Positions 25,892-45,478 of a DNA stretch of 64,000 nucleotides are shown here, piece after piece; within the stretch, counting starts at the first letter, position 1, and every line of letters begins with the position of its first letter. This DNA is from an uncultured bacterium (GTDB lineage Bacteria; Muiribacteriota; UBA9980). The notes beneath the pieces were generated by a model that made no database searches, had not been told where the DNA came from, and was given only the letters and a program-made list of their open reading frames with translations. A program made the position numbers and the translations under genes. Location: contig CAZKCG010000013.1 in assembly GCA_964551445.1 (NCBI GenBank), positions 23,358 to 87,357 of the forward strand. The letters run 5' to 3'.

Positions 25892-25907
25892 CAAAGGGAG
25901 TGAGTTC

Positions 25908-28946: not shown

Positions 28947-31900
28947 CGGAAGAATTTCAGTATCTTTTCTATGAATTCGTCCGAATCGATAGGTTTGGAA
29001 ATGTAATCGTCCATTCCTGAATCAATGCATTTCTGGCGGTCGCCGGGCATGGCGTAAGCGGTCATGGCGATAACGGGCGTTCTTTTTTTTGAGTCAGCCG
29101 TTTCTAATTTCCGCATCTCTGCCGTCGCTTCAAAGCCGTCCATTTCAGGCATTTGGCCGTCCATTAATATTATGTCGAAATGTTCATTTTGAAAATGCTG
29201 AAGAGCTTCGAGCCCGTTCTGGGCTATTGTGATATCCCATTCGTGTTCTCCGGCGATGGTTTTGATGAGCAGCTGACTTATCCTGTCGTCTTCGGCCAGA
29301 AGGATCTTGATTTTCCCGATCTTTTCGATATCGATTATTTTTTTTGCTGAAAGGGCATCGTATGAAACATCTTCCGCTATTTCGAAAGGGATCTCGACCG
29401 TGAAACGGCTTCCACCGCCGATCGCGCTTTCAACCGATACTTTTCCTTCCATCATATCCACGAGCCCTTTTACGATGGCCAGTCCAAGTCCCGCTCCGGA
29501 GTGTCTTTTGGTTGATGAATCGTCTATCTGGTGAAACCGTTCGAATATTTCAGGTATCTTTTTTTCGTCTATTCCGATGCCGGTGTCGGTAAAACTTAGT
29601 TTTAAAATGGAAATATTCCCGATGCGTTCGCGTTCGGTGACGCGCACTGAAACGCTTCCGGTATTGGTGAATTTTATTGCGTTGGTCAAAAGGTTGGTTA
29701 TTATCTGTTTAAGCCGGAGGCCGTCGCCTAAAATATCGAAATCGATCGAAGAGCTGTCGCAATTGACCGCAAGCCCTTTTTTTACGGCCAGGTCGGAGAG
29801 CATATCCACGGTCTTTCTTGCCAGTTCGGCGACGTTGACCGGCTCTTTTTCAAGCCTTAATTTGCCCGCCTCTATCTTCGAAAAATCGAGGATATCGTTT
29901 ATAAGATCCAATAGGTGCGATGATGAAAGCTGTATGATATCGAGAAATTCCTTTTGCGTATCGCCGAGTTTCGTAGACGAGAGAAGGGTGGCGAATCCCA
30001 TGATGCCGTTCATCGGCGTGCGCAGCTCATGGCTCATATTGGCGAGGAAATGACTCTTGGCGGTGTTGGCGGCTTCGGCCATGTCCCGGGCCGATAAAAG
30101 CTCGCTCTCGGATATCTTTCGTTCCATTTCGAGCGCTATATGTCCGGCTATTATCTGAAGCAGATGGAAGACGAATTCCATTCCCTGCCGTCCGGCTGTG
30201 TCGGCTAACGCTAAAGTTCCGAAAACCCTTTCATTCGTTTTGATAGGGACGCAGATGAAGGTCCTGATGGATAATTCCCTGAGAATTTTAAATTTATATT
30301 CGGGCCTGTGGGGCGCGTTAAGCTCCAATAAAGGCTCTCCGGTTTCGGCAACCATGCCGGACAGCGTTTCAGAGGCGGGGACGCGGGTGCCGGCAAGCCC
30401 GGGATCGAGGCCGTGTATCCCTTTAAAGACCATTTCGGCTTTTTTCCGGTCGTAAAGTTCTATTGTGACGACCGGGAAATTAAGGCTTTGAGCAAGTATC
30501 GCGGGAAGTTCCCGGTAGATCTCGTCCAGGCTCCCGGAATAGAGGAACATGCGGGATATTATATTTATGGTCTCTCTTTCAAGTTCGGATTGTTTTTTCA
30601 GGGTTATGTCGCGCATAAAGCCGAAGCCGTAGGACATTTTTCCGTTCCGGTCAAGGACGCCGCCGTCGCTTTCCAATAACAGAAAGCGCCTTCCGGCTTT
30701 ATCAAACACCTCGATTTCGCCTTCCCACGATTCTCCGCCCGCGAGCATCGGGGCCCTTGCGTTTAACTTTTCTATCGATTCCGGCGGATAATAGTCGAGG
30801 TAATTCATTTTTTGGGCTTCTTCAAGGTTCCGGCCAAAAAGTTTTTCGTGCGCGGGATTTATATATATCAATTTACCGGCCGCGTCGCTTATGGCTATGG
30901 CTTCGTGAGAAGATTCGATGATGGTTTTGAAAAGTTTGAGGTTTTCTTCGTACAATTTTTTTTCGCTTACATTTTCGAAAAGCACGGCCACCGAATCATC
31001 GGGAAGCGGAAAGGCCTTGACCGAGAAACACGACAGCAATATCCTGTCATCGCCATAGTAAAAATCATCGAATTCGACAGGCTTATTATTGCGGACGACG
31101 TCGGCATATTTTTCATGTATTCCGCGTTCTTTCAGTCCCGGAAATATCTCGCCGATTTTTTTGCCGATCATATCTTCTTTTTTCAGGCCGAGTCCCGTTG
31201 AAGAATAAGGATTTACGGCTATCATGCGAAGCGAGTCAGCGTCGTTGATATCGTCGAGACGGTAAAGAAAGAGCCCGACCTGCATGTTTTCGACTATATC
31301 ATAGTAAATTTTGATCTGTTTCTCGAAATTTGTCCGTGCGGTTATGTCCATGGCCATTCCACCGAGAAGCGGTTTTTTGTTCCCGCGGTCCAACCTGAAC
31401 TTATGAGTTTCAAAGATCCTTGTTTTACCGTCCCTGCCGATAACGGTTTCTATTGCCATGGCCCGTCCTTCCCTGAGAGCCTTTTTGTCGTTCTCGATCA
31501 TATTTTCCGCCACTTCCGGCGGTAAAAAGTCGATTGTTCTCTTTCCTGTCGGATCGCCGCCGAAGAGCTCGCGGAAGCAATTGTTCGTAAACAATACGCG
31601 GTCATCTTCGTCTTTTATGAAAGCCACGCTGGGGTTTTGTTCCATGAACGAAAAAAAGCGTTCCTGCGCTTCGCGAAGATCATCCCCAAGTCTTTTCAAT
31701 TCCGTTATATTGCTGAAAGTGATGACGAATCCGGCGATCTTTTTATCCAGCGTATAATAAGGCATTATCCGCATCAAATATGATGAACCGTCGTTTGTCA
31801 TGATCTCTTTTTCTCTGGATAAAAGGCTTTTCGAGACTTCCGTGAGTTCCTTCATGATATCGTATTTATCGCTTATGTTATTAACGGTATGCGCAAGTGG

Positions 31901-34207
31901 CCTTCCGATATCGCCCGGAATTAGATTTATTATTTCGGTCATTATGGGAGTGAACCGTCTTATGTTAAGATTCATGTCGGTAAAGAGTACGCCGATCCTG
32001 GTGTTGTTGAAAAGGTTCGTGAGATCGTCGCCGGCTTTTATGAGGTCAACATTTTTATTATGTAATTCGTTATTTACGCTGAGAAGTTCCTGGTTCATCG
32101 ATTGAAGCTCTTCCTTTGAAGTTTCGAGTTCCTCATTGGAGCTTTGCAGTTCTTCGTTGGATGAAAGGAGTTCCTCGTTGGCAAGTTTCAGTTCCTCATT
32201 GGACGCGTCGAGTTCCTCGGTTATTTCCTGGAGACATTCCTTCGTTGAATGAAGCTCGTCTTCGAGTTTGGATATATATATTTCTTTTTCTTCCTCGAAT
32301 TCGACAGCCGATTTCGGTGAAAGATCAGATGTTGCGCTGCCCGACTTTTCAAAAATTATCATCATTGGCTGAGGTTCCGTTTCCAGCGCGAGAGGGATTA
32401 TGGTTATGTCGGTTTTTTCGAAATGAGAGTTCGCTTTTATTTCGACGCCCTCTAAAACAACCTTCTTTTTTTTAGCCGCCGCTTCTTTTAAAGCGATAGT
32501 CAGGGGCAGTTTCAGGCCTTCACGGGCCATCTGGAAAATGTTAAGGCTTGCGTCGCCCACCGGCGGCTCGAGATATTTTCCGGTTTTGCCGTGAGTGTAG
32601 ACTATTTCAAATTTTTCATTAACGACTGCGGCTGAAGGCGAGAACTCTTTAAGAAGCGTTTTTTCGGTTATCTCCTTTAAGCTCATTTCTTTTTTTATTG
32701 TTTCGATGGCATTTTTATCCTGATTGTTTTTCTTTTTAAATTTTTCGAAATTCATTTCTGATATGAATTTGGCTATTTTTTTGTCAGATCCGCACTGGAA
32801 TATTTTCCATTTTTTATCTATTTCCGTGAAAAAACTTGAAAAACCCCAGAGATTTTCGACGTTTCCAAGAAACAGGAACCCTTTCGGATTAAGCGAGTAA
32901 TAAAAAGTCGATATGACCTTTTTTTGCGCTTCGTGCCCGAGATAGATCATAACGTTCCGGCAGCTTATGAGATCCATTTTTGAGAACGGCGGGTCCTTGA
33001 TGAGGTTTTGTTCCGAAAAAATGATCATTTCTCTTATTTCTTTGGATATTTTATATGATTCTCCGCTTCTTTCAAAAAAGCGTTCCAGCCTTTCAGCGGG
33101 AATGATTTTGACTATTTTTTCAGAATAGACGCCTTTTCTGGCGATGTCGAGCGCTCTGTAATTTATGTCGGTCGCAAATATTTTAAAATCTATATTTTCG
33201 CCGGCCAGTTCCTGATTCTCTTTTAAAAGCATCGCTATAGAATATGCTTCTTCGCCGGTCGAACATGCCGGGATCCACACGCGCACAGGCGTATCGGGAT
33301 TTTTGGCTTTCAAAAGCGCCGGGATGACTTTTTTTTCCAGTATTTCAAAAGCTTCTATGTCCCTGAAAAAACTCGTTACGCCTATGAGCATTTCTTTGAA
33401 AAGCGTTTCAACCATAAAATTGTTGATCTCGAGTTTTTTTATGTATTCTTCTATTCCGTCAAGCCCGTTAATAGCCATCTGCCGTTTTATTCTGCGCGTT
33501 ATAGTAGCGTCTTTATATTGTGTAAAATCGTGTCCGAACCGGTTTTTTAATATTTGAAAGATCTTCGGCAGAAATATTTCCAAAAGGTCGTTCTCGTCTT
33601 TTTGCAGCGCGAGGTTCTGACGGTATTCGATAAGTTTTCCAGCCATCTGGCCGGGCTGGAGAACATAGTCGATAAGGCCTGTTTCAATAGCATTTTGAGG
33701 CATGCCCTCGAATTTAGCCGTTAGCGGGTCCTGGGCTATTACCATTCCGTATTTTTCTTTTATGGATTCTATTCCAAGCGACCCGTCAGAGCCGGTTCCT
33801 GATAAAATTATTCCGGCCGCTCTGCATTCGAAGTTATCAGCGAGGGAACTGAAAAAAAAATCGACGGGCAAAGATTGCGTCATTTCACGCATCTGATCGT
33901 AAGGGATAAGTTTAAATTTAGCATTTTCAATGAAGGCGAAGTTTTTTGGCGGGATCACATAGACGCAGCCCGGCTCGAGACCAAGCCCCGGTTCGATGGT
34001 TAAAACCCTCATATTCGTGTGTTTCTGGATGATATCGCCGAGCACGCTTTTGTGGTCGGGGCTCAGGTGCTGTATAATGACGAAAGCCATTCCGATATCG
34101 GAAGGAGTATGGTTGAAGAATTGTTCGAGCGCGTCGAGGCTTCCCGCGGAGGCCCCGATGCCGACGATCATGAAAGTGCCGCTGTCCTGATTTTTTAAAA
34201 GGCTCAT
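28943..34207 (-). CDS. CheB methylesterase - CheR methyltransferase - coiled coil - multiple PAS - GAF - HisKA/HATPase_c - receiver fusion protein (1754 aa)
   Basis: N-terminal IVGIGASAGSLDALEQFF...VIIQHLSPDH...SGTGSDGS (CheB-like Ser/His/Asp). VWIPACSTGEEAYSIAMLL (CheR SAM-binding site). SNEELQSSNEELETSKEELQSMNQEL heptad region. Several PAS blocks, then a GAF domain. H-box HFLANMSHELRTPMNGI, N/G boxes NLLTNAIKF and DTGIGI...GAGLGLAIV. C-terminal REC domain ILLAEDD...IILMDGQMPEMDG. Confidence 0.9.
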   Translation of the reverse strand: MSLLKNQDSGTFMIVGIGASAGSLDALEQFFNHTPSDIGMAFVIIQHLSPDHKSVLGDIIQKHTNMRVLTIEPGLGLEPGCVYVIPPKNFAFIENAKFKLIPYDQMREMTQSLPVDFFFSSLADNFECRAAGIILSGTGSDGSLGIESIKEKYGMVIAQDPLTAKFEGMPQNAIETGLIDYVLQPGQMAGKLIEYRQNLALQKDENDLLEIFLPKIFQILKNRFGHDFTQYKDATITRRIKRQMAINGLDGIEEYIKKLEINNFMVETLFKEMLIGVTSFFRDIEAFEILEKKVIPALLKAKNPDTPVRVWIPACSTGEEAYSIAMLLKENQELAGENIDFKIFATDINYRALDIARKGVYSEKIVKIIPAERLERFFERSGESYKISKEIREMIIFSEQNLIKDPPFSKMDLISCRNVMIYLGHEAQKKVISTFYYSLNPKGFLFLGNVENLWGFSSFFTEIDKKWKIFQCGSDKKIAKFISEMNFEKFKKKNNQDKNAIETIKKEMSLKEITEKTLLKEFSPSAAVVNEKFEIVYTHGKTGKYLEPPVGDASLNIFQMAREGLKLPLTIALKEAAAKKKKVVLEGVEIKANSHFEKTDITIIPLALETEPQPMMIIFEKSGSATSDLSPKSAVEFEEEKEIYISKLEDELHSTKECLQEITEELDASNEELKLANEELLSSNEELQSSNEELETSKEELQSMNQELLSVNNELHNKNVDLIKAGDDLTNLFNNTRIGVLFTDMNLNIRRFTPIMTEIINLIPGDIGRPLAHTVNNISDKYDIMKELTEVSKSLLSREKEIMTNDGSSYLMRIMPYYTLDKKIAGFVITFSNITELKRLGDDLREAQERFFSFMEQNPSVAFIKDEDDRVLFTNNCFRELFGGDPTGKRTIDFLPPEVAENMIENDKKALREGRAMAIETVIGRDGKTRIFETHKFRLDRGNKKPLLGGMAMDITARTNFEKQIKIYYDIVENMQVGLFLYRLDDINDADSLRMIAVNPYSSTGLGLKKEDMIGKKIGEIFPGLKERGIHEKYADVVRNNKPVEFDDFYYGDDRILLSCFSVKAFPLPDDSVAVLFENVSEKKLYEENLKLFKTIIESSHEAIAISDAAGKLIYINPAHEKLFGRNLEEAQKMNYLDYYPPESIEKLNARAPMLAGGESWEGEIEVFDKAGRRFLLLESDGGVLDRNGKMSYGFGFMRDITLKKQSELERETINIISRMFLYSGSLDEIYRELPAILAQSLNFPVVTIELYDRKKAEMVFKGIHGLDPGLAGTRVPASETLSGMVAETGEPLLELNAPHRPEYKFKILRELSIRTFICVPIKTNERVFGTLALADTAGRQGMEFVFHLLQIIAGHIALEMERKISESELLSARDMAEAANTAKSHFLANMSHELRTPMNGIMGFATLLSSTKLGDTQKEFLDIIQLSSSHLLDLINDILDFSKIEAGKLRLEKEPVNVAELARKTVDMLSDLAVKKGLAVNCDSSSIDFDILGDGLRLKQIITNLLTNAIKFTNTGSVSVRVTERERIGNISILKLSFTDTGIGIDEKKIPEIFERFHQIDDSSTKRHSGAGLGLAIVKGLVDMMEGKVSVESAIGGGSRFTVEIPFEIAEDVSYDALSAKKIIDIEKIGKIKILLAEDDRISQLLIKTIAGEHEWDITIAQNGLEALQHFQNEHFDIILMDGQMPEMDGFEATAEMRKLETADSKKRTPVIAMTAYAMPGDRQKCIDSGMDDYISKPIDSDEFIEKILKFFR

Positions 34208-34314: not shown

Positions 34315-34357
34315 GGCAAAATAAAACCGCCGGTTTTTAAATGTCAACCGGCGGTCC
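34315..34357 (-). terminator. rho-independent terminator ending the pseudopilin-like operon
   Basis: Perfect 10-bp stem accgccggtt (34326-34335) / aaccggcggt (34346-34355) with a 10-nt loop. On the minus strand it is followed by ttttatttt. Confidence 0.75.
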
Positions 34358-34396
34358 TATATATAAAGATACTTTTTTAATTATTGTTTCGACGGG

Positions 34397-36244
34397 TCAT
34401 TTAAATAATTCTTTAGCGTCATTCGCGCTCTGATCGCCTGAGGACGTTTCGTAGGGTATTTTGAAATTATCGCAAACGTTCTGGAGGCGGTCCTTCGCGC
34501 CGGCGACCTGAACGAATTCTTTTTTCGCGGAATCCCATTTTGCGCCGGTAAGATAACTTCTTGCCATGACGTTGATAAGGTTATTGATGGTATCCGGCAC
34601 TTCTTTAGCCATCGCGTCTTTAGCCTCATCGCGGCTGCCGAATTTGGTAGGGGTGCCGTTGACTATCTTCGCGACAGCGTCGCTTGCGATGCCGGCGATC
34701 GCGCTAGTAAGACCGCTTTCGAGCATTGAAAGGGCGCCCTGAACGACCACCCGGCCGGCGTCGTCAAGGTTCGATTCGCGCAATACGTTTTCCACTCCGC
34801 AATTTTCCTTGACGATTTTCAAAACTTCCTGCGCTTTTTCTTCAGTCACTTTTTTTACTATCTCGGCGCTGCAGTAACCAAGGGCATCGGCTTTCAACGC
34901 GCCTCTCATAACGTCGCAAAGGTTTGCGTTATATGCGTTAACTATATCGCCGAATTTTTTCGTGTCGCCCGCGGCGCTATAGATATTATTTCTTACGTTG
35001 TCGATTATGGCGAGGTACCTGCCCTGATCGGTAGCGGTCGCGACGTTGTTTTTAAAATCTTCGAAGTAATTAACGTCTATTCCGAATCTTCTAAAGTCGC
35101 CGGAATGTTTTTGAATGAGAGCTTCAATCTCTGCGTTGGTAAGAGCTCTGTTAAGTATCTTGTTTTTTATGACCTCGGCCTGATTTCCCGCGGCGTCAAC
35201 ATAATCGCCGACCAGGGCCGCGGCTATTCCGACGCTTGTTTTTTTCGCGTTATCCGCGGCGTCATACATTATTTTCGCGAAATTGTTCTTTGTCTGGTTT
35301 ATCATGTTCTGTATCTGAGAGTCGTTTACGTACTTGGAATATAGCTCGTCGGCGTGTACCATTAACTTGTCGACGAGCGCCAGCATAAGTTTATCCATAA
35401 GCATTTTTTTCGCGTCCGTGAGAAGGTCCGGAATGAGGGTCTTGAAATTGGTAACCCATTTAAAAGCGTCCACGGCTGAAGCGAAATCGAGTTTTTGCGG
35501 GGGCGAGAGCGTCACGCCGACGATCTCTTTTGTGAAAACGGGGTTTACGTTCCAGTTCGGCTGGTTTTTATAAGCCACTTCATCTTTTATATAAATTATG
35601 TCCTGGTTTTTAGATTTTTGCGCGTCAGCGACGAGCACGTTGGCCATTTTCGATTCTACCTCTATTCCGACGGCCATTGTGTGGCTGGTGCTTTCCATGC
35701 CGGGGATGGGTATCCTTTTTAATTTTATGGCTTCAACGTTTTTTACGGGATTGTTTTTGGATTTTATATCGCCGACCGTGTACATTTCAAATATTTTATC
35801 GTCTTTTTTAAATGTTTTCGCGAAATCGACCTTATAGACCGATCTTACGAATTCGCGGGTGGCCGGATTATAAACGCTCTCAATTTTTTCCATCGATATT
35901 TTATCCGACGCTTTTATGTCGGGGTTTTCAATGAAGCGGAATATCGAGATGGATTGCCCGCTGGAGCTGATCTTGACGCATGGTGTAAGAAGCGGCCCCG
36001 CCGGAGTGGAAATAAAGATCTCGCCGCGTCTGGCTGATTTTATATCGCCGCTTAAATACTGGATCACCATGGTAGTGTTTTCCGCCGTCTGGCTGTGCTG
36101 GACCATGGTCGTGACCTGCTGGTTCTGAGACGAGGTGAATTTCACGTAACTCGCTATTACCATCGAAAATGCCGTCAGAGCCATAAGCGTTTCCAGTATC
36201 GTGAAACCCGTTTTTGTCTTGAAAAATGAAGATAATTTTATCAT
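34397..36244 (-). CDS. large pseudopilin-like protein (615 aa) with a canonical prepilin N-terminal cleavage/methylation signal
   Basis: MIKLSSFFKTKTG|FTILETLMALTAFSMVIASYV: a short basic leader, Gly-1, Phe+1, Glu+5 and a hydrophobic helix. The remainder has no recognisable family, and the C-terminal half looks alpha-helical and rich in A/K/N/D. Confidence 0.7.
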   Translation of the reverse strand: MIKLSSFFKTKTGFTILETLMALTAFSMVIASYVKFTSSQNQQVTTMVQHSQTAENTTMVIQYLSGDIKSARRGEIFISTPAGPLLTPCVKISSSGQSISIFRFIENPDIKASDKISMEKIESVYNPATREFVRSVYKVDFAKTFKKDDKIFEMYTVGDIKSKNNPVKNVEAIKLKRIPIPGMESTSHTMAVGIEVESKMANVLVADAQKSKNQDIIYIKDEVAYKNQPNWNVNPVFTKEIVGVTLSPPQKLDFASAVDAFKWVTNFKTLIPDLLTDAKKMLMDKLMLALVDKLMVHADELYSKYVNDSQIQNMINQTKNNFAKIMYDAADNAKKTSVGIAAALVGDYVDAAGNQAEVIKNKILNRALTNAEIEALIQKHSGDFRRFGIDVNYFEDFKNNVATATDQGRYLAIIDNVRNNIYSAAGDTKKFGDIVNAYNANLCDVMRGALKADALGYCSAEIVKKVTEEKAQEVLKIVKENCGVENVLRESNLDDAGRVVVQGALSMLESGLTSAIAGIASDAVAKIVNGTPTKFGSRDEAKDAMAKEVPDTINNLINVMARSYLTGAKWDSAKKEFVQVAGAKDRLQNVCDNFKIPYETSSGDQSANDAKELFK

Positions 36245-36269
36245 AAAGACCCCTCCAGTAGAAAATTAT

Positions 36270-36749
36270 TTATAATACATAATCCCTTGTAACAAGAGCT
36301 TTAAGTGTGACGTAACGCTGATCGCCGCCTGAGAACGTGCCGTCGTACCACCATACGAAAACCGTTACCATTACCATATCAGGGTCATTATTCATGTATG
36401 CGATGGTGGTCTGGCGCTTGAATTTTTTATAGATGTCGCTGCTGTATGCGGTACCGGCGGTATTAGTTTGTGCCGTGACCTGTATCTCCGGCTCAGGCTT
36501 ATTGAGGCCGTTCTTCAAAAGCGTTTTCAGCTCGAGGTAGGAAACGGATTTGTATTCCTCGACCTTTTCCTGGGCCAGTCTCAGGGCGATCTGAACGTCG
36601 TCGGTGTGTATGGTGTATTTTTTAATGGATGTAAAAAGGTTGATGGAAGGCATTATTGCCAGAGCTATTATGCCGATGGCTATCAGAACTTCCAGAAACG
36701 ACACCGCGCGCCTGTTAAGTTTTAATAATTTCCTTGTTGTGATAAGCAT
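36270..36749 (-). CDS. small pseudopilin-like protein (159 aa, GspI/PilV-like size)
   Basis: KLNRRA|VSFLEVLIAIGIIALAIMP: Glu at +5 and a hydrophobic helix, but Ala rather than Gly at -1. Confidence 0.6.
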   Translation of the reverse strand: MLITTRKLLKLNRRAVSFLEVLIAIGIIALAIMPSINLFTSIKKYTIHTDDVQIALRLAQEKVEEYKSVSYLELKTLLKNGLNKPEPEIQVTAQTNTAGTAYSSDIYKKFKRQTTIAYMNNDPDMVMVTVFVWWYDGTFSGGDQRYVTLKALVTRDYVL

Positions 36750-36767
36750 AGCGCGTTCTCTCCTTTA

Positions 36768-38996
36768 CTATTTCACCTTTGAAATTTTATATGTGCTGAA
36801 CTGTGATGAAAGGATAGCACGGTATCTGTCTGGCATATACCTTCCGACGTACGGTATCAACGACAGGAATGAACATGTGGTAACTTCCGGTGTGTACCAG
36901 ATGGTAAGATCTCTCATTATTTCCGAAGGGCTGAATTCTTCGCAGACGAAATTTCCTATTATATTTGTGTCTCCGCCTGAAGCCACGCCAGTTTTCGCGT
37001 AAACCGGCGATAAAATGCGGCAGTTGGCCTGCGTCCTTAATTTTCCCATGCATATTATCGAGAAAGGAACGCTTCTGTCGCCGTCTTTGGGTTTATGGAT
37101 TATATCTCCGGTAACGGTAAGATCGCCGTTGACGACTATCTGGCCCGCGCCGTAAAAAGTCCCGGAGATGGATGCGCCGCCTTCGATGTAGTAAACGCCG
37201 TCTATCTGAATGACCCCGGCGCTGTCGCGTATCGTTGAGTCGTTATTGAAGTCGGTTCCGCTTTCAAAAACGAGAGTGGCTTTTTTCTTGTATTGGTCGG
37301 GCATATAAATATTTTCGATTATTCCCTTGGTTTCGGCCTGCGCCTCTTTTTCAAAGAAAGAATAAGAATACCCGGCTTCCTTGGTTTTGTAGTAATAAAC
37401 GCCCGCGCCGACGGGCACGAAAACGATGTAGAAAGTGAACCCGACGCCGTATACGTGGGTAAAACTCTTTGTAACGTTTCCGCTGACCTTCATGTTAAGC
37501 GGTGGTGAAAGACACCAGTCGCCGAACAACTGGGTTTTACCTTTGCCCGATGAAAGGCCGGCGACAACCTTGACTATGCCGACGACGCCTAAGGGCGGGA
37601 CGGAAACAAACGGGAACCAGGGTATGCCGTCGCACGGTATGCCCATTAAATATGCCGAAGGCAGATAGCAGTCGCCCGCGCCGTAATTTCCGAACATCGT
37701 GATCGCCGGGGTATGACCGGGATAGAGAAGAAGAAGATCGTTAAGCCCGGTCGGTATCTGTTGTTTTCCGGCGCCGCCTATGAAACAGAGACCGGGAAAT
37801 CTGACTATGTTCATGCTGAAAAGACCTTTGAAAAATTCGAGAATATCGCCGATGTTGAAAGCGCCTTTATAGTCCGGGTCGAGGTTTAAGTTCATCAGTT
37901 TGAATTTGCCGCCGCCGGTATTGCACCACGCGTCGGGGCTATGGACGGTGTTATTTTTATTGAGCCAGTAAAAAGTATAGAGCGGGTTCGGCGCGGCCAG
38001 GTCGACGACCTTTACGTCGCGCGTCGCTTCTATCACGGTAACTATGGGTATGCTTGTTCCGCTCGGGACGAATTCAACTCTGCAGTTGTAATAAAGCGTG
38101 GCGAATTTTTCTATTATTATGTCGGCTTTTATCGGGATAAGCGATGGCAGTTTAAGCTGATCGACGATCTTTTCCAGCGCTTTCGAGAGCATCTGGCCGA
38201 CGTTTATCTCAATGGTTAAAAACTGGCTTAAACATTTTGCCAGTATATCGCCGATAGGTATCGGAATACCGAAAATACTTATTTTCAAGCCTTTTAAAAA
38301 GCCGCTCAGGTCGATCTTAAATTTTATATCGTTGAGCCCCAGAAAGTCAAAAAGCTGGTTTCCGAGACTTTTAAGCCAGTCTTTAAGGAATGTGTCGTCA
38401 ACGACGGCTCCGGGCCAGAGCACAGAGCCGCTGTCGGAGACGACCGGCTTCATGTCTTTTATCATCATCGTGCATTCGACCTTGGTCCTGCCGTCGTCGC
38501 CGCCGAGTTCCCTTATGAACTGGGTCACGCCGAGGGCCTGGGCGTTTAATTTCTGCTGGCTCCAGGTCGGTGACAGGCCGAGAGTGTCAGGCGACAGGCT
38601 TATATCGGCGTTGATGCCGGAGACGCCCGTCCCCGAACTGGTTCCGCCGGTAACTACGATCCCCGGAACGCGCATTTTAAGATACCATGAAGAAGATGGA
38701 TTTCCGAGCATGGAAATAACGTTTTTGACAAGTTCTACAGGATTCATGTTCCCGAGAGCGTTCATTTCGGAACGGACCTTATAAGTGGCGGCTTCTATGG
38801 CAGCCTCGCCGAGAAGCCTTGCTTTTTCAACGTTAACGATGTGAAATGTTTTTGCATCCTGGTTCTTCGAGAAATTCATCATGAAAAAAGCCATCATAGC
38901 CATGACGAAAACAAGCGCGAGCACAAGCGGGATAACGAATCCGCGCCGGTACTTTCTGAAAATATTTAAAAATTCTTTTGAGTAGTAATGTTTCAT
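36768..38996 (-). CDS. large membrane-anchored PilX/GspK-like protein (742 aa) with a putative beta-helix-like C-terminus
   Basis: The N-terminal KYRRG|FVIPLVLALVFVMAMMAFFMM is pilin-like but lacks Glu+5, as in GspK/PilX-type minor pilins. The C-terminal GVYYIEGGASISGTFYGAGQIVVNGDLTVTGDI resembles beta-helical repeats. Confidence 0.55.
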   Translation of the reverse strand: MKHYYSKEFLNIFRKYRRGFVIPLVLALVFVMAMMAFFMMNFSKNQDAKTFHIVNVEKARLLGEAAIEAATYKVRSEMNALGNMNPVELVKNVISMLGNPSSSWYLKMRVPGIVVTGGTSSGTGVSGINADISLSPDTLGLSPTWSQQKLNAQALGVTQFIRELGGDDGRTKVECTMMIKDMKPVVSDSGSVLWPGAVVDDTFLKDWLKSLGNQLFDFLGLNDIKFKIDLSGFLKGLKISIFGIPIPIGDILAKCLSQFLTIEINVGQMLSKALEKIVDQLKLPSLIPIKADIIIEKFATLYYNCRVEFVPSGTSIPIVTVIEATRDVKVVDLAAPNPLYTFYWLNKNNTVHSPDAWCNTGGGKFKLMNLNLDPDYKGAFNIGDILEFFKGLFSMNIVRFPGLCFIGGAGKQQIPTGLNDLLLLYPGHTPAITMFGNYGAGDCYLPSAYLMGIPCDGIPWFPFVSVPPLGVVGIVKVVAGLSSGKGKTQLFGDWCLSPPLNMKVSGNVTKSFTHVYGVGFTFYIVFVPVGAGVYYYKTKEAGYSYSFFEKEAQAETKGIIENIYMPDQYKKKATLVFESGTDFNNDSTIRDSAGVIQIDGVYYIEGGASISGTFYGAGQIVVNGDLTVTGDIIHKPKDGDRSVPFSIICMGKLRTQANCRILSPVYAKTGVASGGDTNIIGNFVCEEFSPSEIMRDLTIWYTPEVTTCSFLSLIPYVGRYMPDRYRAILSSQFSTYKISKVK

Positions 38997-39043
38997 AACA
39001 GATCACATCCAGATAGTATTGATAAATGTGGCATGACCTCAGC

Positions 39044-39865
39044 TTATTTCATGTCGGGGGTCTTGAAGTCGGAGTTTCCGGCATTGGGAGCCTTGAAATC
39101 GGATTTTCCGGTATCGGCCTTTAAAAAAGTCTTCATCGCGGTGTCCGATTTAGGATAAGCCTTTTTCAGCGAATCGCCGATATCGGGGAAAGCTTTGAAA
39201 TAAAGCTGGGCGTTGACGGCGAGCATGGCGTTTTGGGCTTTGGCTTCCTGTACCGCGTCACCTGTTTTTTTGTAAATGTCGGTTAAATAACCCAGTGCTA
39301 GCGATCTTAAATAAATATTGGTCGATTTGTCGGCGAGGTTCGCGAATAATTCGGCGGCTTCTTTATATCTGCCTTTTTTGTAGAGGTCTGAGGCCTGAAG
39401 GAATACCGGGTGTTGTTCCGCCTGCTGCATCAGCGGCACCATGGCGGTGTTGAAACCGCTTGCGTCTATCATGGGCTTGATATTGGCGTCAAAAAACTCA
39501 TTGTAAGCGGACTGTTTCATCGGCTCGAGGGGCGTGAGCGTCGATTTGTAATATTCGCCGTCATCCCATGTGAAGTTATTGAGACCCGCCACGGCTTTTA
39601 TATGGGACGCCTTGTTTTTAGCCGGAACGCGGCTTTTTCCGCCGAAAAGCGGTCCGTTGTCGATATTTGAGTAACTGCTCGAATCGGAGGTCGTTTTAGA
39701 TGAAGCGTTTTTGACCTTTTTATTGAACGAAAAACCGTCCGACGATCTTTTTGAAGACCGGCTTGAAGAACTGTCTGAACCGCCATAAAGAAAATAGATC
39801 ACCGCCGCGATGATTATGAGCAGAAGTATTATTAATAGCCATTTAAGGCCGCCGTTTTCTTCCAT
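39044..39865 (-). CDS. membrane-anchored protein with a Ser-rich linker and TPR-like C-terminal domain
   Basis: Transmembrane helix LKWLLIILLLIIIAAVIYFLY, then an S-rich linker, then a TPR-like YKKGRYKEAAELFANLADKSTNIYLRSLALGYLTDIYKKTGD. RBS ggag lies 8 nt before the ATG. Confidence 0.55.
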   Translation of the reverse strand: MEENGGLKWLLIILLLIIIAAVIYFLYGGSDSSSSRSSKRSSDGFSFNKKVKNASSKTTSDSSSYSNIDNGPLFGGKSRVPAKNKASHIKAVAGLNNFTWDDGEYYKSTLTPLEPMKQSAYNEFFDANIKPMIDASGFNTAMVPLMQQAEQHPVFLQASDLYKKGRYKEAAELFANLADKSTNIYLRSLALGYLTDIYKKTGDAVQEAKAQNAMLAVNAQLYFKAFPDIGDSLKKAYPKSDTAMKTFLKADTGKSDFKAPNAGNSDFKTPDMK

Positions 39866-39903
39866 TTATAAAGCTCCGTAAAAATAAAATAGCGTCTAAT
39901 TTT

Positions 39904-39932
39904 ATTATAACAAATAAATGACGCTTTGTCAG
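39904..39932 (-). promoter_or_regulatory. near-consensus promoter cTGACA-17 nt-(TGt)TATAAT for the pseudopilin-like operon
   Basis: On the minus strand: CTGACA at 39932-39927 and TATAAT at 39909-39904, preceded by TGt. It sits immediately after the polC stop (39935-39937). Confidence 0.45.
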
Positions 39933-39934
39933 TA

Positions 39935-42900
39935 TCATTCAAAAAAAACTAACTGATCGGTCTGCGGAAGCGCCTTGAGAGTTCCCATGGTCGATAGAAC
40001 TTCTATTACGTTTTTCGAGGCTTTTGTCCTGTCCTTGAAATCTTCTATGGATACGAAATCGGATTTCTGGGCTTCCTCGAAAATTTTATGAGCGACCACG
40101 CCGCCAAGTCCCTGCACCGAGTTGAACGGGCATATCAGGCCGTCGTTGGTTTCTTTATTTATGGTGAAGTTGAAAGCCTTTGATCTATAAAGATCGACGG
40201 GATAAAATTTTATGCCGCGCGCCATGGCTTCCAGCACGACCTCCATTATCACGTATTGTTCGTTCTCTTTGGCCGTCGCTTCCTTGCCTTTCGCTTTCGT
40301 GTCGTTCATGGTGTTTGCGACATATTCACGGCCTTTTAAAACCGTACCCGCGTCGAACGCGGAGAGACCTTTCGTCGAAAAATATGTCGCGTAAAAAGCG
40401 AGCGGATGGTTGACCTTGAAATAGGCTATTCGAAAGGCCATCATGACATAAGCCGCAGCGTGGGCTTTCGGGAACATATATTTTATCTTGTTGCACGAAT
40501 CGATATACCACTGTGGTATATTGTGTTTCTGCATTTCGGCGACCATATCCGGTTTCAGGCCCTTTCCTTTTCTGACGTTCTCCATTATGTTAAACGAGAG
40601 AAGCGGCGGCATGCCGTGTTCCAGAAGATAGTTGATTATGTCGTCGCGCACGGATATAACTTCGGAGAGCTTCGCGTTCCCGTTTTTAATATACATCTGG
40701 GCGTTATTGAGCCAGACGTCGGTGCCGTGCGACAGGCCCGATATTCGAACGAGTTCGCCGAATGTTTTCGGCCTTGTCTCATCGAGCATGCCGCGGACGA
40801 AGGATGTTCCAAATTCCGGTATGCCGAGTGTCCCCAGATTTATTCCGGTGATGTCTTCGGCCTTTATATTAAGCGCGTCAAGGCTTGAAAAAAGCGAAAG
40901 CGTCTGTTTGTCGCCGAATTCGATATCATTGACCGAAAGCCCTGTCAGATCTTCCAGCATTTTTATGATGGTCGGGTCGTCATGTCCCAGAAGGTCGAGT
41001 TTCAAAAGTTTTTTATCGATGGCGTTATAATCGAAATGCGTCGTTATCGTTCCGCCGTTTCTGTCATTGGCCGGGAAATTCACTGGAGTGAACTCATGGA
41101 TATCACGGCCCATTGGAACGATCATGATGCCGCCCGGGTGCTGGCCGGTGGTTTTTTTGACGCCGCTGCAGCCTATGGCTAGCCGGTTCATTTCAGCCGG
41201 CCGTTTATTGACGTGGCGCTCTTCCAGATACGCTTTAACGAAGCCGAACGCTGTCTTATCGGCGATAGTGGATATGGTTCCGGCGCGGAAGACGTTGTTT
41301 TCGCCGAATATCACGCCGACGTATTCATGAATTCGCGGCTGATAGTCGCCGGAGAAGTTAAGATCGATATCGGGCGTCTTGTCGCCGTCGAATCCGAGGA
41401 AGACCTCGAAAGGTATTTTCTGTCCGTCCTTTTTCAACTTCGCGCCGCATTTGGGGCAATTCTTGTCGGCAAGATCGAAGCCTGAATTGAGAGGCAGGTC
41501 CTCGAAAAATTCGGAATATTTGCATTTTTCGTCTTTGCAGTAATAGTGCGGCGGCAGCGGGTTCACCTCGGTGATGTTGGTGAAGGTCGCGACGAGCGAA
41601 GAACCAACGGATCCTCGCGAACCGACCAGGTAGCCGTCGATCATGGATTTTTTGACCAGTTCGTGCGCTATAAGATAAAGCGTCGCGAAACCGTTTTTAA
41701 TGATGCAGTTCAATTCGTGCTCGAGGCGTTTTTTGACCGGCTCGGGGAGCGGATCGCCGTATTTTTTTATCGCGTTCTCCCATGACATATCTTTGATCTT
41801 ATCCTCGGCGCCTTCCATGACGGGGAACGCGTCGTCCTTGGGTATCGGGATAAGATCGCCGATCATGGCCGCCACTTTTTGAGGATTTTCGATGACGACC
41901 TCGTTAGACGCCGCCTCGCCGAGGTATGAAAATTCTTTGAGCATTTCTTCAGTGGTCGGAAAATAAAGCGGGCAGGCGTTTTCTACGTTATCGAACTTCT
42001 GTCCGGCGAATAATATCTTTCTGAAGATCTCGTCCTCGGGATTGAGGTAATGCATATCGGAAGTCGCGCAGACCGGCTTTCCGAGTTTTCTGCCGAGTTC
42101 GTAAATGCGCGTATTCAAAGCGACCAGGTCTTTTTCAGACTTGAATTCTTCAGGCATTTTTTCCATAAAGAATGAATTATTTTTGATCGGCTGTATCTCA
42201 AGGTAGTCGTAAAAATTCGCGACCGCTTCCATTTCTTCGTCGCTTTTTCCGCCCACCATGCCGCGTATGAGTTCGCCCGCCTCGCAGGCCGAGCCGAGTA
42301 TGAGGCCTTCGCGGTGTTTCGTGAGTTCGGCTCTTGGAATGCGCGGCCTTTTATGAAAATAACTGATGTGAGAGGCCGATACGAGTTTATAAAGATTTGT
42401 GATGCCGGCCTGCGTCGCCGCGAGAATTATGATGTGATGAGGCGAAGGGACCTTGACTTTTTTTTCGTTATCATTTTTATTGAGAAGCGCCGTAGAATCC
42501 TCGATGAGATAGCCTTCCATGCCGAATATGGGTTTTATTTTGTTGTTCTTCGCGGCTTCCGCGAATTCAGGAAAGCCCTGAACCACGCCGTGATCCGTGA
42601 GAGCGACGGCGGAATGTCCCCATTTGGCGGCAAGTTTCACGTAATTTGAGATCTCGGTCATTCCGTCCATGGAGGACATTTTAGAGTGGGCGTGCAGCTC
42701 GACCCTTTTTTTATCCGCGGTATCTTTGCGTTCCGGCATTTTTCCGATGTTTACGTCATTGACCATTATTATGTGGTCTTTTTCAAATTGGTCGAACTTC
42801 ACGTTTCCGAGGACCTTTACAACCATTCCGGCTTTGAGCTTGATATCGGCTTCGGGGCTCGCGAATATCTTACAGACTATGGTATCGCTAAGATCGCTGA

Positions 42901-43921: not shown

Positions 43922-43964
43922 CCTCGTATTAACTCCATTATTTTCAGCTGAAACCTTAGTCTGG

Positions 43965-44945
43965 TTAATCGTTGATGGCCGCGTAAAACCTCTTTTTCAT
44001 GTAAGCCGGCATGTATGACTGTTTGAGGTTTTGAAGCCCGGGCATCCCGGAGTCGTCAGAAGTGTTAACGAACTCACATGTGACATTTTCCTTTAAAAAT
44101 TCCCTGAATAAAAACTGTGATAATCCAAAAAAGTTGTTATCCACTTTTTCTATCGCGACCGTAAAAGTATCCGCCGTTGTCTGTTCGCCGATTATAAAGC
44201 CGGCCACCGCTCCGTATAATTTGATGCAGGCCCCCGTTCCGTTAAGCTGCAGGAAGTTCTTCAGGTAGCTTCTGGTCTGAAAAGCCTCCAGCATGAAGTT
44301 CTTTTCAGGATTTATATTCCTGGCGTCAAAAAGTTCCGAAAGATGTATCGTTCGCCCGGGCTTGTTCTCGTAATACCAGTTCTTTAAAAATGAACGGACC
44401 CCGGCTATATTACCGGCCGTTAAAGGCTCTATCACATAAGAAGTGTAGGTCCTTAAAAATTTGTTTATGTTCTCTCTTTTATTTTTATATTTGGAGCCTG
44501 CGAGCTCTATAAGCTTCGCCCGTTCGTAGATGTAGTCCGGCAGGTCTTCGGCCATTGAAATTCCGCTTATTGAGCCCATGAGGCCGGCCTGTTGCTCTGA
44601 AATGCTCAAAATTCTCGAACCGGGGTTCCCGAGAGCTTTCGATATCATTGAAAGCTGTGAAACGGCGACGCCGAGCGCCTTAATAAAATTTTCCGGCGAT
44701 CCCGTTCCGAGAGGCGGATACAGCATGTCTATCATTCTGCGCAATACGCGGACTATAAGGAGGGCTCCATTATCTTCCTTGAAAAAGACCGTGTTCGGAG
44801 GCGACCATACGAAAGCGAGCGGGAACGAATAATCCGAAAAATTACAGTTCTCTTTTTTAAAGTAACCGCCGGCTATGGCGCTTGCGTCTATCGTTAATGG
44901 TTCGAACCCGAAGTCTTTTAATATTTCCGAGGGTTTTCTCAACAT
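43965..44945 (-). CDS. DUF2156-like protein (resembles the lysyl-phosphatidylglycerol synthase C-terminal domain; GNAT-like fold)
   Basis: 326 aa. The N-terminal FSDYSFPLAFVWSP block and the overall length resemble stand-alone DUF2156 proteins. Recalled from memory, not searched. Confidence 0.5.
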   Translation of the reverse strand: MLRKPSEILKDFGFEPLTIDASAIAGGYFKKENCNFSDYSFPLAFVWSPPNTVFFKEDNGALLIVRVLRRMIDMLYPPLGTGSPENFIKALGVAVSQLSMISKALGNPGSRILSISEQQAGLMGSISGISMAEDLPDYIYERAKLIELAGSKYKNKRENINKFLRTYTSYVIEPLTAGNIAGVRSFLKNWYYENKPGRTIHLSELFDARNINPEKNFMLEAFQTRSYLKNFLQLNGTGACIKLYGAVAGFIIGEQTTADTFTVAIEKVDNNFFGLSQFLFREFLKENVTCEFVNTSDDSGMPGLQNLKQSYMPAYMKKRFYAAIND

Positions 44946-44947
44946 TA

Positions 44948-45478
44948 TTATTTCAGTTCTTTCACGAATTTTATGGCGGACGAGCCGTCGTTATAATAGT
45001 TTTCGATCAGGGCGAGAGGCCTGTATCCGAATTTTTCATACATGGCTATCGCTGGAGCGTTGCCTTTTTTTACCTCGAGATAAATTCTGCGGCATTTTCT
45101 GGCCGCAAGCGCTTTTTCAATATGCGTCAGAAGTTTCGTGCCGAGCGAGCGCCCCTGATATTTTTTCGATACGGCTATCGAATAGAGCCTTCCGCATTTG
45201 TTTTCACCGGCCGCCGTCCCGGCGGTCCTGACATAGCCAATGGCGTATGACGATATTTCAGCCGCGCTTTTTTCTTCCGCGCCAATTTCCGCTACGGCGA
45301 ATACCGCGTTTCCGCTTTTTACGGCGTATTGGAACTGTCTTTCATTGAAAGCGTCGCGGCCGAAATTTTCGGTCTCGATAGCCATTACGGCGGCTATGTC
45401 GGCATATTTAGCGGCGCGTATCCGGACCTTTTCGGCGTTTATTTTTATTTTTTCGCCGTCAGCAGTTCTCGTTCTCAC
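44948..45478 (-). CDS. GNAT-family N-acetyltransferase, RimI-like
   Basis: IRAAKYADIAAVMAIETENF...LYSIAVSKKYQGRSLGTKLLTHIEK...IYLEVKKGNAPAIAMYEKFGY, including the acetyl-CoA-binding Q/RxxGxG/A motif. Confidence 0.8.
   Translation of the reverse strand: MRTRTADGEKIKINAEKVRIRAAKYADIAAVMAIETENFGRDAFNERQFQYAVKSGNAVFAVAEIGAEEKSAAEISSYAIGYVRTAGTAAGENKCGRLYSIAVSKKYQGRSLGTKLLTHIEKALAARKCRRIYLEVKKGNAPAIAMYEKFGYRPLALIENYYNDGSSAIKFVKELK

What the first reader, a model, noticed from the sequence alone, without database searches (positions are those of the whole stretch)
34315..39932. Self-contained operon of enlarged minor-pseudopilin-like proteins with no pilus or T2SS machinery nearby
The unit is bounded by its own near-consensus promoter (39904-39932) and a strong terminator (34315-34357). 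It encodes four proteins, in transcription order:
- a transmembrane protein with a Ser-rich linker and a TPR-like domain (273 aa);
- a 742-aa protein whose N-terminus (RRG|FVIPLVLALV) is pilin-like but lacks Glu+5, the hallmark of GspK/PilX-type tip subunits, and which ends in a beta-helix-like domain;
- a 159-aa pseudopilin (A|VSFLEVLIAIG, with Glu+5);
- a 615-aa pseudopilin with a textbook prepilin signal (KTG|FTILETLMAL).

The combination of one subunit lacking Glu+5 with two that have it resembles the GspI/J/K or PilV/W/X tip complex. However, two of the members are 3-5 times larger than normal minor pilins, and their globular parts match nothing I recognise.

The 64-kb window contains no major pilin, assembly ATPase (GspE/PilB), platform protein (GspF/PilC), prepilin peptidase or secretin.

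The operon could therefore be a tip or adhesin module that hijacks a distant type IV filament machine. Alternatively, it could be an undescribed surface or periplasmic filament-associated system.
Basis: partly seen in the sequence, partly recalled or inferred. Interest (0 to 1): 0.7.

Follow-up and report, generated by a model that had tools for sequence, protein, structure and literature searches.

The report
Detached minor-pilin tip operon, Wallbacteria
This four-gene operon from an uncultured Wallbacteria genome most likely encodes the cap and starter complex of a type IV pilus, a known kind of module (as in Thermus ComZ and cyanobacterial PilX-PilV-PilW sets) in an unusually enlarged, lineage-specific form.

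Summary
Four tightly spaced minus-strand genes (273, 742, 159 and 615 aa) lie between a conserved sigma-70-like promoter and a strong terminator. The window contains no pilus or T2SS machinery.

What the proteins are:
- 742 aa: no Glu5. Its model's only significant PDB match is the Thermus tip pilin ComZ. Its C-terminal beta-solenoid is homologous to DUF7305, a domain of PilX_N/TadG-type proteins.
- 159 aa: a small, Glu5-bearing prepilin of PilV/GspI type.
- 615 aa: a GspJ/PilW-fold prepilin with a fast-evolving 360-aa helical module that matches nothing.

The block occurs only in Candidatus Wallbacteria, in most MAGs as two paralogous copies. A simpler trio occurs in relatives including Candidatus Riflebacteria. 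None of 25 related loci (330 kb) carries a GspE/F/D/O homologue.

Best reading: a core minor-pilin priming and tip set in the order PilX-PilV-PilW, as in cyanobacteria, serving a machine encoded elsewhere. I could not check whether these genomes encode that machine.

Detached minor-pilin operons and beta-solenoid tip pilins are already known, so this is a new variant of a known kind, of moderate interest. The new elements are the helical module, the accessory membrane protein and the missing FimT/GspH-type pilin.

The parts
39904..39932 (-). Sigma-70-type promoter, CTGACA-17 nt-TATAAT with a TG extended -10, directly after the polC stop codon
   Evidence: 11 of 12 matches. A promoter-like site at the same position is present in the orthologous loci L014, L009, L010, L011, L004 and L018, and upstream of the paralogous operons L001, L016 and L017.
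39044..39865 (-). Gene A, 273 aa. A single-pass membrane protein with a Ser-rich linker, a conserved GF[ST][FY] motif and a conserved C-terminal helical (weakly TPR-like) domain of about 180 aa. Inferred to be an accessory or chaperone component.
   Evidence: TPR families only at E 0.05-0.09; family alignment; only 8 homologues among 5.8 billion proteins. It always sits directly upstream of gene B. Topology is ambiguous by the positive-inside rule. A weak A-like gene is present in one distant locus, L024.
36768..38996 (-). Gene B, 742 aa. A PilX/GspK/ComZ-like tip pseudopilin: pilin-like N-terminus without Glu5 (RRG|FVIPL), a long N-terminal helix, a beta-rich body and a C-terminal beta-solenoid.
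   Evidence: family alignment. (AF2 model, pLDDT 67, pTM 0.62). (Foldseek: the only significant PDB hit is ComZ 6qvi_A, E 9e-5, prob 0.97, followed by ice-binding-protein solenoids). (205 remote homologues). (remote homologues carry PilX_N, DUF7305 or Tad domains).
36879..37301 (-). Beta-solenoid segment of B (aa 566-706), homologous to the DUF7305 domain of PilX_N/TadG-type pilus proteins
   Evidence: hhalign probability 99.35%, E 6e-21. (strands 596-700, pLDDT 80-92). It is the most conserved part of B.
36270..36749 (-). Gene C, 159 aa. A small prepilin-type pseudopilin with Glu5, in the PilV/GspI/ComGE position and of that size.
   Evidence: family motif [RK]G|[VFY][TS]F[LV]E[IV][LM]IA; the window copy reads RRA|VSFLE. 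(N_methyl, ComGE, PilV and GspI hits, all below curated cut-offs). (family alignment). (the C-family HMM hits the gene after B in Riflebacteria-type loci, E 5e-12 to 7e-9).
35645..36244 (-). Gene D, N-terminal pseudopilin domain (aa 1-200): prepilin signal KTG|FTILE followed by a GspJ/PilW-like beta-sheet
   Evidence: (AF2 model). (Foldseek: XcpW 5vtm_W, EpsJ 2ret_B and GspJ 3ci0_J, prob 0.97-0.99, target TM about 0.5, but E 0.05-0.5). (ComGF and GspI N-terminal hits below cut-off).
34400..35476 (-). Gene D, C-terminal all-alpha module (aa 257-615). Found only in the Wallbacteria D family, fastest-evolving part of the operon, no known relative.
   Evidence: helices, pLDDT up to 95. (no confident fold or sequence match in the PDB). 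(64% identity here against 91% in the pilin domain, to the nearest relative). (D-like genes in Riflebacteria-type loci are 364-508 aa; the D-family HMM matches only their N-terminal ~75 residues).
34318..34355 (-). Intrinsic terminator: a perfect 10-bp GC-rich stem with a 10-nt loop and a T-run, 42 nt after the stop codon of D
   Evidence: (sequence). The MFE fold of 34365-34310 extends the stem to 15 pairs; dG -23.2 kcal/mol, z = -5.34, 0 of 200 shuffles as stable.

Best explanation
The operon encodes a core minor-pilin set, the priming and tip complex of a type IV filament. The filament is most likely a type IVa-like pilus of this double-membraned bacterium, and its motor, platform, peptidase, secretin and major pilin are encoded elsewhere.

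Proposed sequence of events (all inferred from the behaviour of the known families):
1. The operon's own sigma-70-type promoter transcribes A-B-C-D as one unit.
2. C (PilV/GspI-like) and D (PilW/GspJ-like) insert into the inner membrane through their class III signal peptides. A prepilin peptidase cleaves them after Gly or Ala at -1 and N-methylates the new N-terminus.
3. B (PilX/GspK/ComZ-like) lacks Glu5, as expected for the top subunit, which has no subunit above it to neutralise.
4. B, C and D bundle their N-terminal helices into a staggered trimer. This trimer nucleates polymerisation of the major pilin beneath it and stays at the tip.
5. The bulky beta-solenoid of B caps or plugs the tip. 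Together with the variable helical module of D it forms the exposed binding surface. The ligand is unknown; DNA (as for ComZ), polysaccharide or a surface are candidates.
6. A is an accessory membrane protein that may hold or chaperone the complex before assembly. This is the least supported step.
7. The two paralogous sets per genome probably prime functionally different pili, as shown in cyanobacteria.
For: **Shown here**
- Prepilin motifs with Glu5 in C and D, and a Glu5-less pilin-like N-terminus in B, are conserved across the Wallbacteria paralogues and in distant Riflebacteria-type trios.
- The gene order A-B-C-D is invariant in all Wallbacteria loci. The order B-C-D holds in L023, L024 and L025.
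- The B model's only significant PDB match is the tip pilin ComZ, followed by ice-binding-protein solenoids. These are the same structural relatives reported for ComZ itself (PMC6561018).
- B's C-terminus is homologous to DUF7305, found in PilX_N and TadG-type proteins.
- D's N-terminal domain matches GspJ, XcpW and EpsJ.
- The operon has its own conserved promoter and a terminator.
- GC content is native to the window.

**From the literature**
- Cyanobacteria encode the loci in the order PilX-PilV-PilW-FimT. Every PilX carries an IBP-like beta-solenoid, genomes often hold two sets, and the sets prime distinct pili.
- GspK/I/J forms the tip complex, and core minor pilins prime assembly.
Against: - No pilus or T2SS machine, prepilin peptidase or major pilin was seen in the window or in 330 kb of related loci. 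I could not search whole Wallbacteria genomes, so the required machine is assumed.
- No curated model reaches its cut-off on any of the four proteins.
- Profile comparison with E. coli GspI, GspJ and GspK aligns only the N-terminal helix.
- A profile search finds no sequence similarity to ComZ.
- Both AF2 models are of medium quality (pLDDT 64-67). The ComZ match has a low global TM-score (0.18/0.25), and the GspJ matches have weak E-values.
- There is no FimT/GspH-type fourth minor pilin in the block.
- The window's C protein has Ala at -1, which is suboptimal for prepilin peptidases (my own knowledge).
Confidence: 0.75

Rival explanations
1. The set is the pseudopilus tip (GspI-GspJ-GspK equivalents) of a type II secretion system rather than of a type IV pilus. 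It would push or select secreted substrates in the periplasm.
For: D's best fold matches are T2SS GspJ-type proteins. ComZ's pilin domain is itself closest to GspK. E. coli GspI and GspJ N-termini hit the C-like and D-like genes.
Against: - T2SS pseudopilin genes normally sit inside the gsp operon with gspD, gspE, gspF and gspG. None is present in any of 25 loci.
- Beta-solenoid tip subunits, the gene order X-V-W and duplicated sets are features of type IV pili in diderm Terrabacteria.
- A cap of about 700 aa plus a 360-aa helical module is hard to fit in a periplasmic pseudopilus (inference).
Confidence: 0.12
2. A more specific version of the main reading: the polC-adjacent set is a competence-pilus tip, with B acting as a ComZ-like DNA receptor. 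The paralogous set would serve adhesion or motility.
For: ComZ is the only significant structural match. ComZ binds DNA and pairs with an adjacent minor pilin. Cyanobacteria split their two sets into competence and motility/EPS types. JGI names one D homologue 'ComGC', although this rests on the N-terminal motif only.
Against: There is no sequence homology to ComZ, and its DNA-binding lysines cannot be mapped. No comEA or comEC is nearby. The same solenoid fold serves adhesion and ice binding in other proteins. Synteny with polC is not functional evidence.
Confidence: 0.25
3. The proteins are not pilus subunits at all. They would be signal-anchored envelope proteins forming a stand-alone, undescribed surface or periplasmic complex that needs no type IV filament machine.
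For: No machinery was found in any locus. All curated family hits are below threshold. Public records call these proteins hypothetical. Riflebacteria are unusually rich in unknown gene families.
Against: The G/A|[FV][TS]xxE pattern, with Glu exactly at +5 in two subunits and absent in the third, is maintained across deep divergence. This is hard to explain without prepilin processing and filament-type helix packing. Fold matches are to ComZ and GspJ. B is homologous to PilX_N/TadG-associated DUF7305 proteins.
Confidence: 0.05
4. The set belongs to a Tad/Flp-type (type IVc) pilus, with B playing a TadG-like role.
For: 3 of 24 remote DUF7305 relatives carry the Tad (TadE/G-like) domain and 2 carry Tad_C.
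Against: C and D have type IVa/T2SS-style signals (G|FTLxE followed by a long hydrophobic helix), not TadE/TadF-type ones (my own knowledge). D has a GspJ fold. No tad genes are in any locus.
Confidence: 0.03

Closest known systems
Thermus thermophilus ComZ with its partner minor pilin PilA2 (PDB 6QVI; PMC6561018)
   Same: A large pilin-like protein that standard pilin detectors do not recognise. It has a GspK-like pilin domain plus a big ice-binding-protein-like beta-solenoid, and is encoded next to small minor pilins. It is argued to sit only at the tip. ComZ is the only significant Foldseek hit of the B model. Both hosts are diderm Terrabacteria.
   Different: - No detectable sequence homology.
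- B is about 190 aa longer and has extra beta-rich inserts.
- The Thermus locus also holds PilA1, PilA3 and the major pilin PilA4, which are absent here.
- DNA binding is untested here.
- The global superposition is poor (TM 0.18/0.25).
Cyanobacterial core minor-pilin sets PilX-PilV-PilW-FimT, Com-type and EPS-type (bioRxiv 10.64898/2026.02.12.705559)
   Same: The same gene order, X-V-W. PilX carries an IBP-like beta-solenoid proposed to act as a tip plug. The loci lie apart from the machine. Genomes often hold two divergent sets, with co-evolving X/V pairs that prime distinct pili.
   Different: - No FimT/GspH-type fourth pilin in the block.
- An extra upstream membrane protein (A).
- The PilW-like subunit carries a 360-aa helical module.
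- I could not obtain cyanobacterial sequences, so direct homology was not tested.
T2SS tip complex GspK-GspI-GspJ (ETEC 3CI0; P. aeruginosa XcpVWX 5VTM)
   Same: One large cap subunit without Glu5, one small subunit and one mid-sized subunit with Glu5. D's pilin domain matches the GspJ fold.
   Different: - The gsp genes are embedded in the secretion operon in the order H-I-J-K.
- GspK's insert is alpha-helical, not a solenoid.
- Sequence similarity is limited to the N-terminal helix.
Detached type IVa minor-pilin operons: P. aeruginosa fimU-pilVWXY1E and E. coli ppdAB-ygdB-ppdC (equivalences in the table of PMC7248040)
   Same: A minor-pilin operon encoded away from the pilB, pilC, pilD and pilMNOPQ genes. 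Its products prime assembly and end up at the tip.
   Different: Those subunits are of ordinary size, and the large tip adhesin is a separate non-pilin protein (PilY1). Here the bulk is built into the pilins themselves.
Modular type IV pilins (for example the Streptococcus sanguinis PilB vWA module; bioRxiv 10.1101/2021.01.27.428410, listed)
   Same: A functional module grafted onto a pilin fold, as with D's C-terminal helical module.
   Different: D's module is all-alpha with no recognisable family. D is a GspJ/PilW-type core minor pilin rather than a PilA-like one.

Membership tests
Type IV pilin / pseudopilin superfamily (class III signal peptide) | A short basic leader ending in Gly(-1), then a hydrophobic helix of about 20 aa with Glu at +5 | tested here: met
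   C: [RK]G|[VFY][TS]F[LV]E in relatives, and RRA|VSFLE in the window and its nearest relative. D: G or A|FT[ILFM][LIV]E. The Pfam N_methyl hit is below cut-off (16.7 and 13.6 bits against 21.2).
Type IV pilin / pseudopilin superfamily (class III signal peptide) | The N-terminal alpha-helix packs against an antiparallel beta-sheet | tested here: inconclusive
   The D model shows a helix plus a sheet at 75-196, but with pLDDT 30-75. The B model shows helix 21-79 plus sheets.
Type IV pilin / pseudopilin superfamily (class III signal peptide) | Cleavage and N-methylation by a PilD/GspO prepilin peptidase encoded in the genome | not testable with these tools
   There is no peptidase homologue in the window or in 330 kb of loci.
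GspK / PilX-type tip subunit | A pilin-like N-terminus that lacks Glu5 | tested here: met
   [RK]G|[FVM][VAT]IPL with Leu at +5, invariant I22 and P23 in 15 sequences. Riflebacteria-type relatives read KKGSAF, KKGMAL and similar.
GspK / PilX-type tip subunit | A match to the PilX_N domain (PF14341) | tested here: not met
   B has no hit even at E <= 1. Only remote homologues reached through B's C-terminal domain carry PilX_N: 6 of 24, best E 1.2e-7. B's segment 'NQDAKTFH...EKA..L.EAAIEA' resembles the PilX_N pattern by eye only.
ComZ / cyanobacterial PilX beta-solenoid tip pilins | A large triangular, ice-binding-protein-like beta-solenoid attached to a GspK-like pilin domain | tested here: met
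   Foldseek finds ComZ 6qvi_A at E 9.1e-5, prob 0.97; the next hits are IBP/DUF3494 solenoids. Solenoid strands 596-700 have pLDDT 80-92. The global TM-score is low, so this is a domain-level match.
ComZ / cyanobacterial PilX beta-solenoid tip pilins | [quoted passage not shown] | tested here: inconclusive
   DSSP shows a final strand at 737-741 after the solenoid, and the invariant C-terminal motif VGRYxPDRY. I could not inspect coordinates to see where that strand packs.
ComZ / cyanobacterial PilX beta-solenoid tip pilins | Sequence homology to ComZ | tested here: not met
   The profile of 15 B-family sequences against all PDB sequences gives no ComZ hit at E <= 10.
ComZ / cyanobacterial PilX beta-solenoid tip pilins | Encoded next to partner PilV/PilW-type minor pilins | tested here: met
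   B is followed by C and D in every locus.
DUF7305 (PF23981) beta-solenoid domain | Profile-level homology to the domain | tested here: met
   hhalign of the B family against 24 short relatives (15 with DUF7305): probability 99.35%, E 6.4e-21, B residues 566-706. The Pfam model itself does not hit B directly.
GspJ / PilW / ComGF | The GspJ-type fold of the globular domain | tested here: met
   Foldseek: 5vtm_W, 2ret_B, 3ci0_J and 9a1f_S with prob 0.97-0.99 and target TM 0.36-0.54, but E 0.05-0.5 and a medium-quality model.
GspJ / PilW / ComGF | A curated sequence model at or above its cut-off | tested here: not met
   ComGF scores 19.9 bits against a cut-off of 80; there are no PilW or GspJ model hits. 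hhalign against E. coli GspJ aligns 21 N-terminal residues only.
GspI / PilV / ComGE | A curated sequence model at or above its cut-off | tested here: not met
   ComGE 21.3 against 49, PilV 17.8 against 52.2, GspI 13.4 against 44.35. hhalign against E. coli GspI aligns 16 residues. No PDB sequence hit. The assignment rests on size, Glu5 and gene position.
Type II secretion system (as a whole locus) | GspD secretin, GspE ATPase, GspF platform, GspC/L/M and GspG encoded with the minor pseudopilins | tested here: not met
   No hits in the window or in 25 related loci.

The most novel reading that the evidence does not exclude
Wallbacteria and Riflebacteria might lack a conventional pilus motor and peptidase. 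In that case the conserved B-C-D trio, with A, would form a previously undescribed machine-independent envelope structure. Alternatively, the trio primes a dedicated filament whose PilW-like subunit delivers a novel 360-aa helical effector or adhesin module at the tip.
Probability: 0.07. Interest if true: 0.75.

Novelty: new variant of a known kind. Interest (0 to 1): 0.35.

Why it matters
- It extends the ComZ/cyanobacterial-PilX type of tip complex, with a beta-solenoid built into the cap pilin, to two little-known candidate phyla of double-membraned Terrabacteria. This suggests the design is old and widespread in that branch rather than a peculiarity of Thermus or cyanobacteria.
- It gives names to proteins that public records list as hypothetical.
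- It flags a fast-evolving helical module on a PilW-like pilin as a candidate new tip adhesin or receptor.
- The two paralogous sets seen in most Wallbacteria MAGs offer a second, independent case for the idea that different minor-pilin sets programme one machine to build functionally different pili.

Tried and rejected
**Searches that failed or gave nothing**
- Looking up the window's own contig to read beyond the window: B and two edge genes were 'not on record'.
- The metagenome-contig scan meant to sample more contexts of the wider family. The first alignment was too divergent.
- PDB profile searches with the B family, the C family and D's helical module: nothing meaningful.
- hhalign against E. 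coli GspI, GspJ and GspK: only the N-terminal helix aligns.
- Literature on pili in Wallbacteria or Riflebacteria: nothing usable.
- Looking for a machine next to a shorter PilX-like gene in Ca. Rifleibacterium amylolyticum: none found, only a PilS/PilR-like kinase and sigma-54 activator pair.

**Ideas rejected**
- A mobile or foreign island: GC content is native, and synteny with polC is conserved.
- Protein A as a T2SS GspC or FliL: the hits cover only the TM segment and lie far below cut-offs.
- A bactofilin cytoskeletal role for the solenoid: that label comes from the generic beta-helix repeat in relatives.

Full report

Yes. Four ORFs lie head to tail on the minus strand: A at 39865-39044 (273 aa), B at 38996-36768 (742 aa), C at 36749-36270 (159 aa) and D at 36244-34397 (615 aa). 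The gaps between them are 47, 18 and 25 nt.

- The best promoter-like site in the region is CTGACA-17-TATAAT preceded by TG, scoring 11 of 12. It sits at 39932-39904, directly after the polC stop codon.
- Comparable sites occupy the same position in orthologous loci and upstream of the paralogous operons.
- Forty-two nt after the stop codon of D there is a perfect 10-bp GC-rich hairpin followed by a T-run. The fold has dG -23.2 kcal/mol and z = -5.3.
- GC content matches the rest of the window.
- The N-termini read as reported.

**2. Where does it occur?**

- The B protein has only 14 relatives among 5.8 billion clustered proteins. D has 7 and A has 8.
- A scan of 185,579 species genomes found B only in MAGs labelled Candidatus Wallbacteria or UBP16, or unclassified MAGs carrying the same block. 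Most of these MAGs carry two divergent copies, about 70% and 42-48% identical to the window's B.
- In every locus the order A-B-C-D is kept.
- One copy always follows a radical-SAM gene, a GNAT gene, an LPG-synthase-C gene and polC. The other copy lies between a pyruvate:ferredoxin oxidoreductase cluster and queH.
- An exhaustive profile search of 1.84 billion representatives found 205 more distant relatives. The 740-1070-aa relatives that carry an organism name are almost all Candidatus Riflebacteria or Rifleibacterium.
- In three such loci the B-like gene is again followed by a small prepilin (C-family HMM E 5e-12 to 7e-9) and a second prepilin of 364-508 aa.

**3. What are the proteins?**

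*C and D.* Both carry textbook class III signals with Glu at +5, conserved across all paralogues. D-like genes in the distant trios carry the same signal.

*B.* B carries [RK]G|[FVM][VAT]IPL without Glu5.
- The AF2 model of B (pLDDT 67, pTM 0.62) has a long N-terminal helix, a beta-rich body and a confident C-terminal beta-helix.
- Its only significant PDB match is the Thermus thermophilus competence pilin ComZ (E 9e-5, prob 0.97), followed by ice-binding-protein solenoids.
- That is the same pair of structural relatives the ComZ authors report: a GspK-like pilin domain plus an IBP-like solenoid, argued to fit only at a pilus tip.
- B residues 566-706 are homologous (hhalign 99.35%, E 6e-21) to the DUF7305 solenoid. 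In the most remote relatives this domain is combined with PilX_N or TadG-type N-termini.

*D.* The N-terminal domain of the D model matches GspJ-type pseudopilins (XcpW, EpsJ, GspJ) with prob 0.97-0.99 and target TM about 0.5, though E-values are weak.
- Residues 257-615 form an all-alpha module with no fold or sequence relative.
- This module was found only in the Wallbacteria D family; the shorter Riflebacteria-type D-like proteins match the D-family HMM only over the first ~75 residues.
- It is the fastest-evolving part of the operon.

*C.* C is assigned to the PilV/GspI position only by its size, its Glu5 and its gene position. All curated models score below their cut-offs.

*A.* A is a single-pass membrane protein with a variable Ser-rich linker, a conserved GF[ST][FY] motif and a conserved helical domain. 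The helical domain is TPR-like only below threshold. Its topology is ambiguous.

**4. Is any machinery nearby?**

No.
- Pfam scans of the window's large ORFs show a dcw cell-division cluster, PolC, a CheB-CheR-PAS-GAF-kinase hybrid and metabolic genes.
- tblastn with E. coli GspC-O, HofB, HofC and PpdD against the window plus 25 related loci (330 kb) finds only pilin N-terminal helices.
- The block is therefore not embedded in a T2SS or T4P locus in any relative sampled.
- I could not search whole Wallbacteria genomes, so the existence of the machine remains assumed.

**5. How it most likely works**

B, C and D correspond to PilX/GspK, PilV/GspI and PilW/GspJ, the core minor pilins. In known systems these form a staggered helix-bundled complex that primes filament assembly and stays at the tip. 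The subunit without Glu5 is the cap.

Here the cap carries the solenoid. In cyanobacteria the solenoid is proposed to act as the tip plug otherwise provided by PilY1. D adds a variable helical module, which suggests an exposed binding surface. A is probably an accessory factor.

All functional steps are inferred. What is shown is the motifs, the folds, the homology and the synteny.

**6. Comparison with what is known**

The closest described systems are Thermus ComZ with PilA2 and the cyanobacterial PilX-PilV-PilW-FimT sets. The cyanobacterial sets share the gene order, the solenoid-bearing PilX, detachment from the machine, and two divergent sets per genome that prime different pili.

The differences are:
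- no FimT/GspH-type pilin in the block;
- the extra gene A;
- a larger B with additional inserts;
- the helical module on D;
- no detectable sequence homology to ComZ.

Wallbacteria, like Thermus and cyanobacteria, are diderm Terrabacteria.

**7. Verdict**

The finding is real and correctly read as a tip-complex-like module. It is not a new kind of system. It is a lineage-specific, enlarged variant of a known detached core minor-pilin set.

Interest is moderate. It widens the phylogenetic range of solenoid-capped pili and supplies an uncharacterised helical tip module.

Noticed in passing
window 39935-46115 (- strand): A Gram-positive-type PolC replicase (1328 aa) in a double-membraned candidate phylum. 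It is preceded by LPG-synthase-C-like, GNAT and radical-SAM genes. This whole array, together with the pilin operon, is syntenic across Wallbacteria MAGs.
   Followed up: partly
window 28943-34207 (- strand): A 1754-aa fusion protein combining CheB methylesterase, CheR methyltransferase, several PAS domains, GAF, a histidine kinase and a receiver domain. It lies directly downstream of the operon. It is conserved downstream only in the closest relative (L019).
   Followed up: partly
window 22939-28265 (+ strand): A MoxR-like AAA_5 ATPase, followed by a 699-aa protein with a weak DUF5682 hit and a 785-aa beta-propeller protein. This may be a three-gene unit of unknown role.
   Followed up: no
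window 21544-22914 (+), 46679-47323 (+) and 48067-49680 (-): Three sizeable ORFs (456, 214 and 537 aa) with no Pfam family at E <= 0.01, apart from a far sub-threshold YhdP hit on the first.
   Followed up: no
L023:4959-12198: In a distant B-C-D locus (unnamed Logan contig), two proteins of about 1200 aa with weak Ig, fn3 and PKD-like hits follow the trio directly. They may be adhesins or cargo linked to the pilin set.
   Followed up: no
L028:10001-14626 (Ca. Rifleibacterium amylolyticum, JAACJG010000006.1): A stand-alone 579-aa PilX-like/DUF7305-related gene is followed by a HisKA kinase and a sigma-54 activator response regulator. This resembles the PilS/PilR pair that controls pilin genes in other bacteria.
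   Followed up: partly
window 36695-36749 (N-terminus of C); D genes of the paralogous loci L001, L015, L016 and L022: Ala replaces the near-universal Gly at position -1 of the prepilin site: RRA|VSFLE in the window's C protein, and KKA|FTL[IV]E in all paralog-class D proteins. This hints at a peptidase tolerant of Ala in this lineage.
   Followed up: partly
window 39710-39724 (protein A residues 44-48) and all A homologues: A conserved GF[ST][FY] motif lies 12-25 residues after the TM helix of protein A. It looks like a prepilin cleavage motif but sits on the wrong side of the hydrophobic segment. Its meaning is unknown.
   Followed up: no
L020:2989-5426: In one MAG (CAYQWL01) the paralogous B gene is split into two overlapping ORFs. 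This is a frameshift, either a pseudogene or an assembly error.
   Followed up: no
window 47345-47995 (+); L025:888-1520: An ankyrin-repeat protein lies within 10 kb of the pilin genes both in the window and in a Riflebacteria locus. This is probably coincidence.
   Followed up: no
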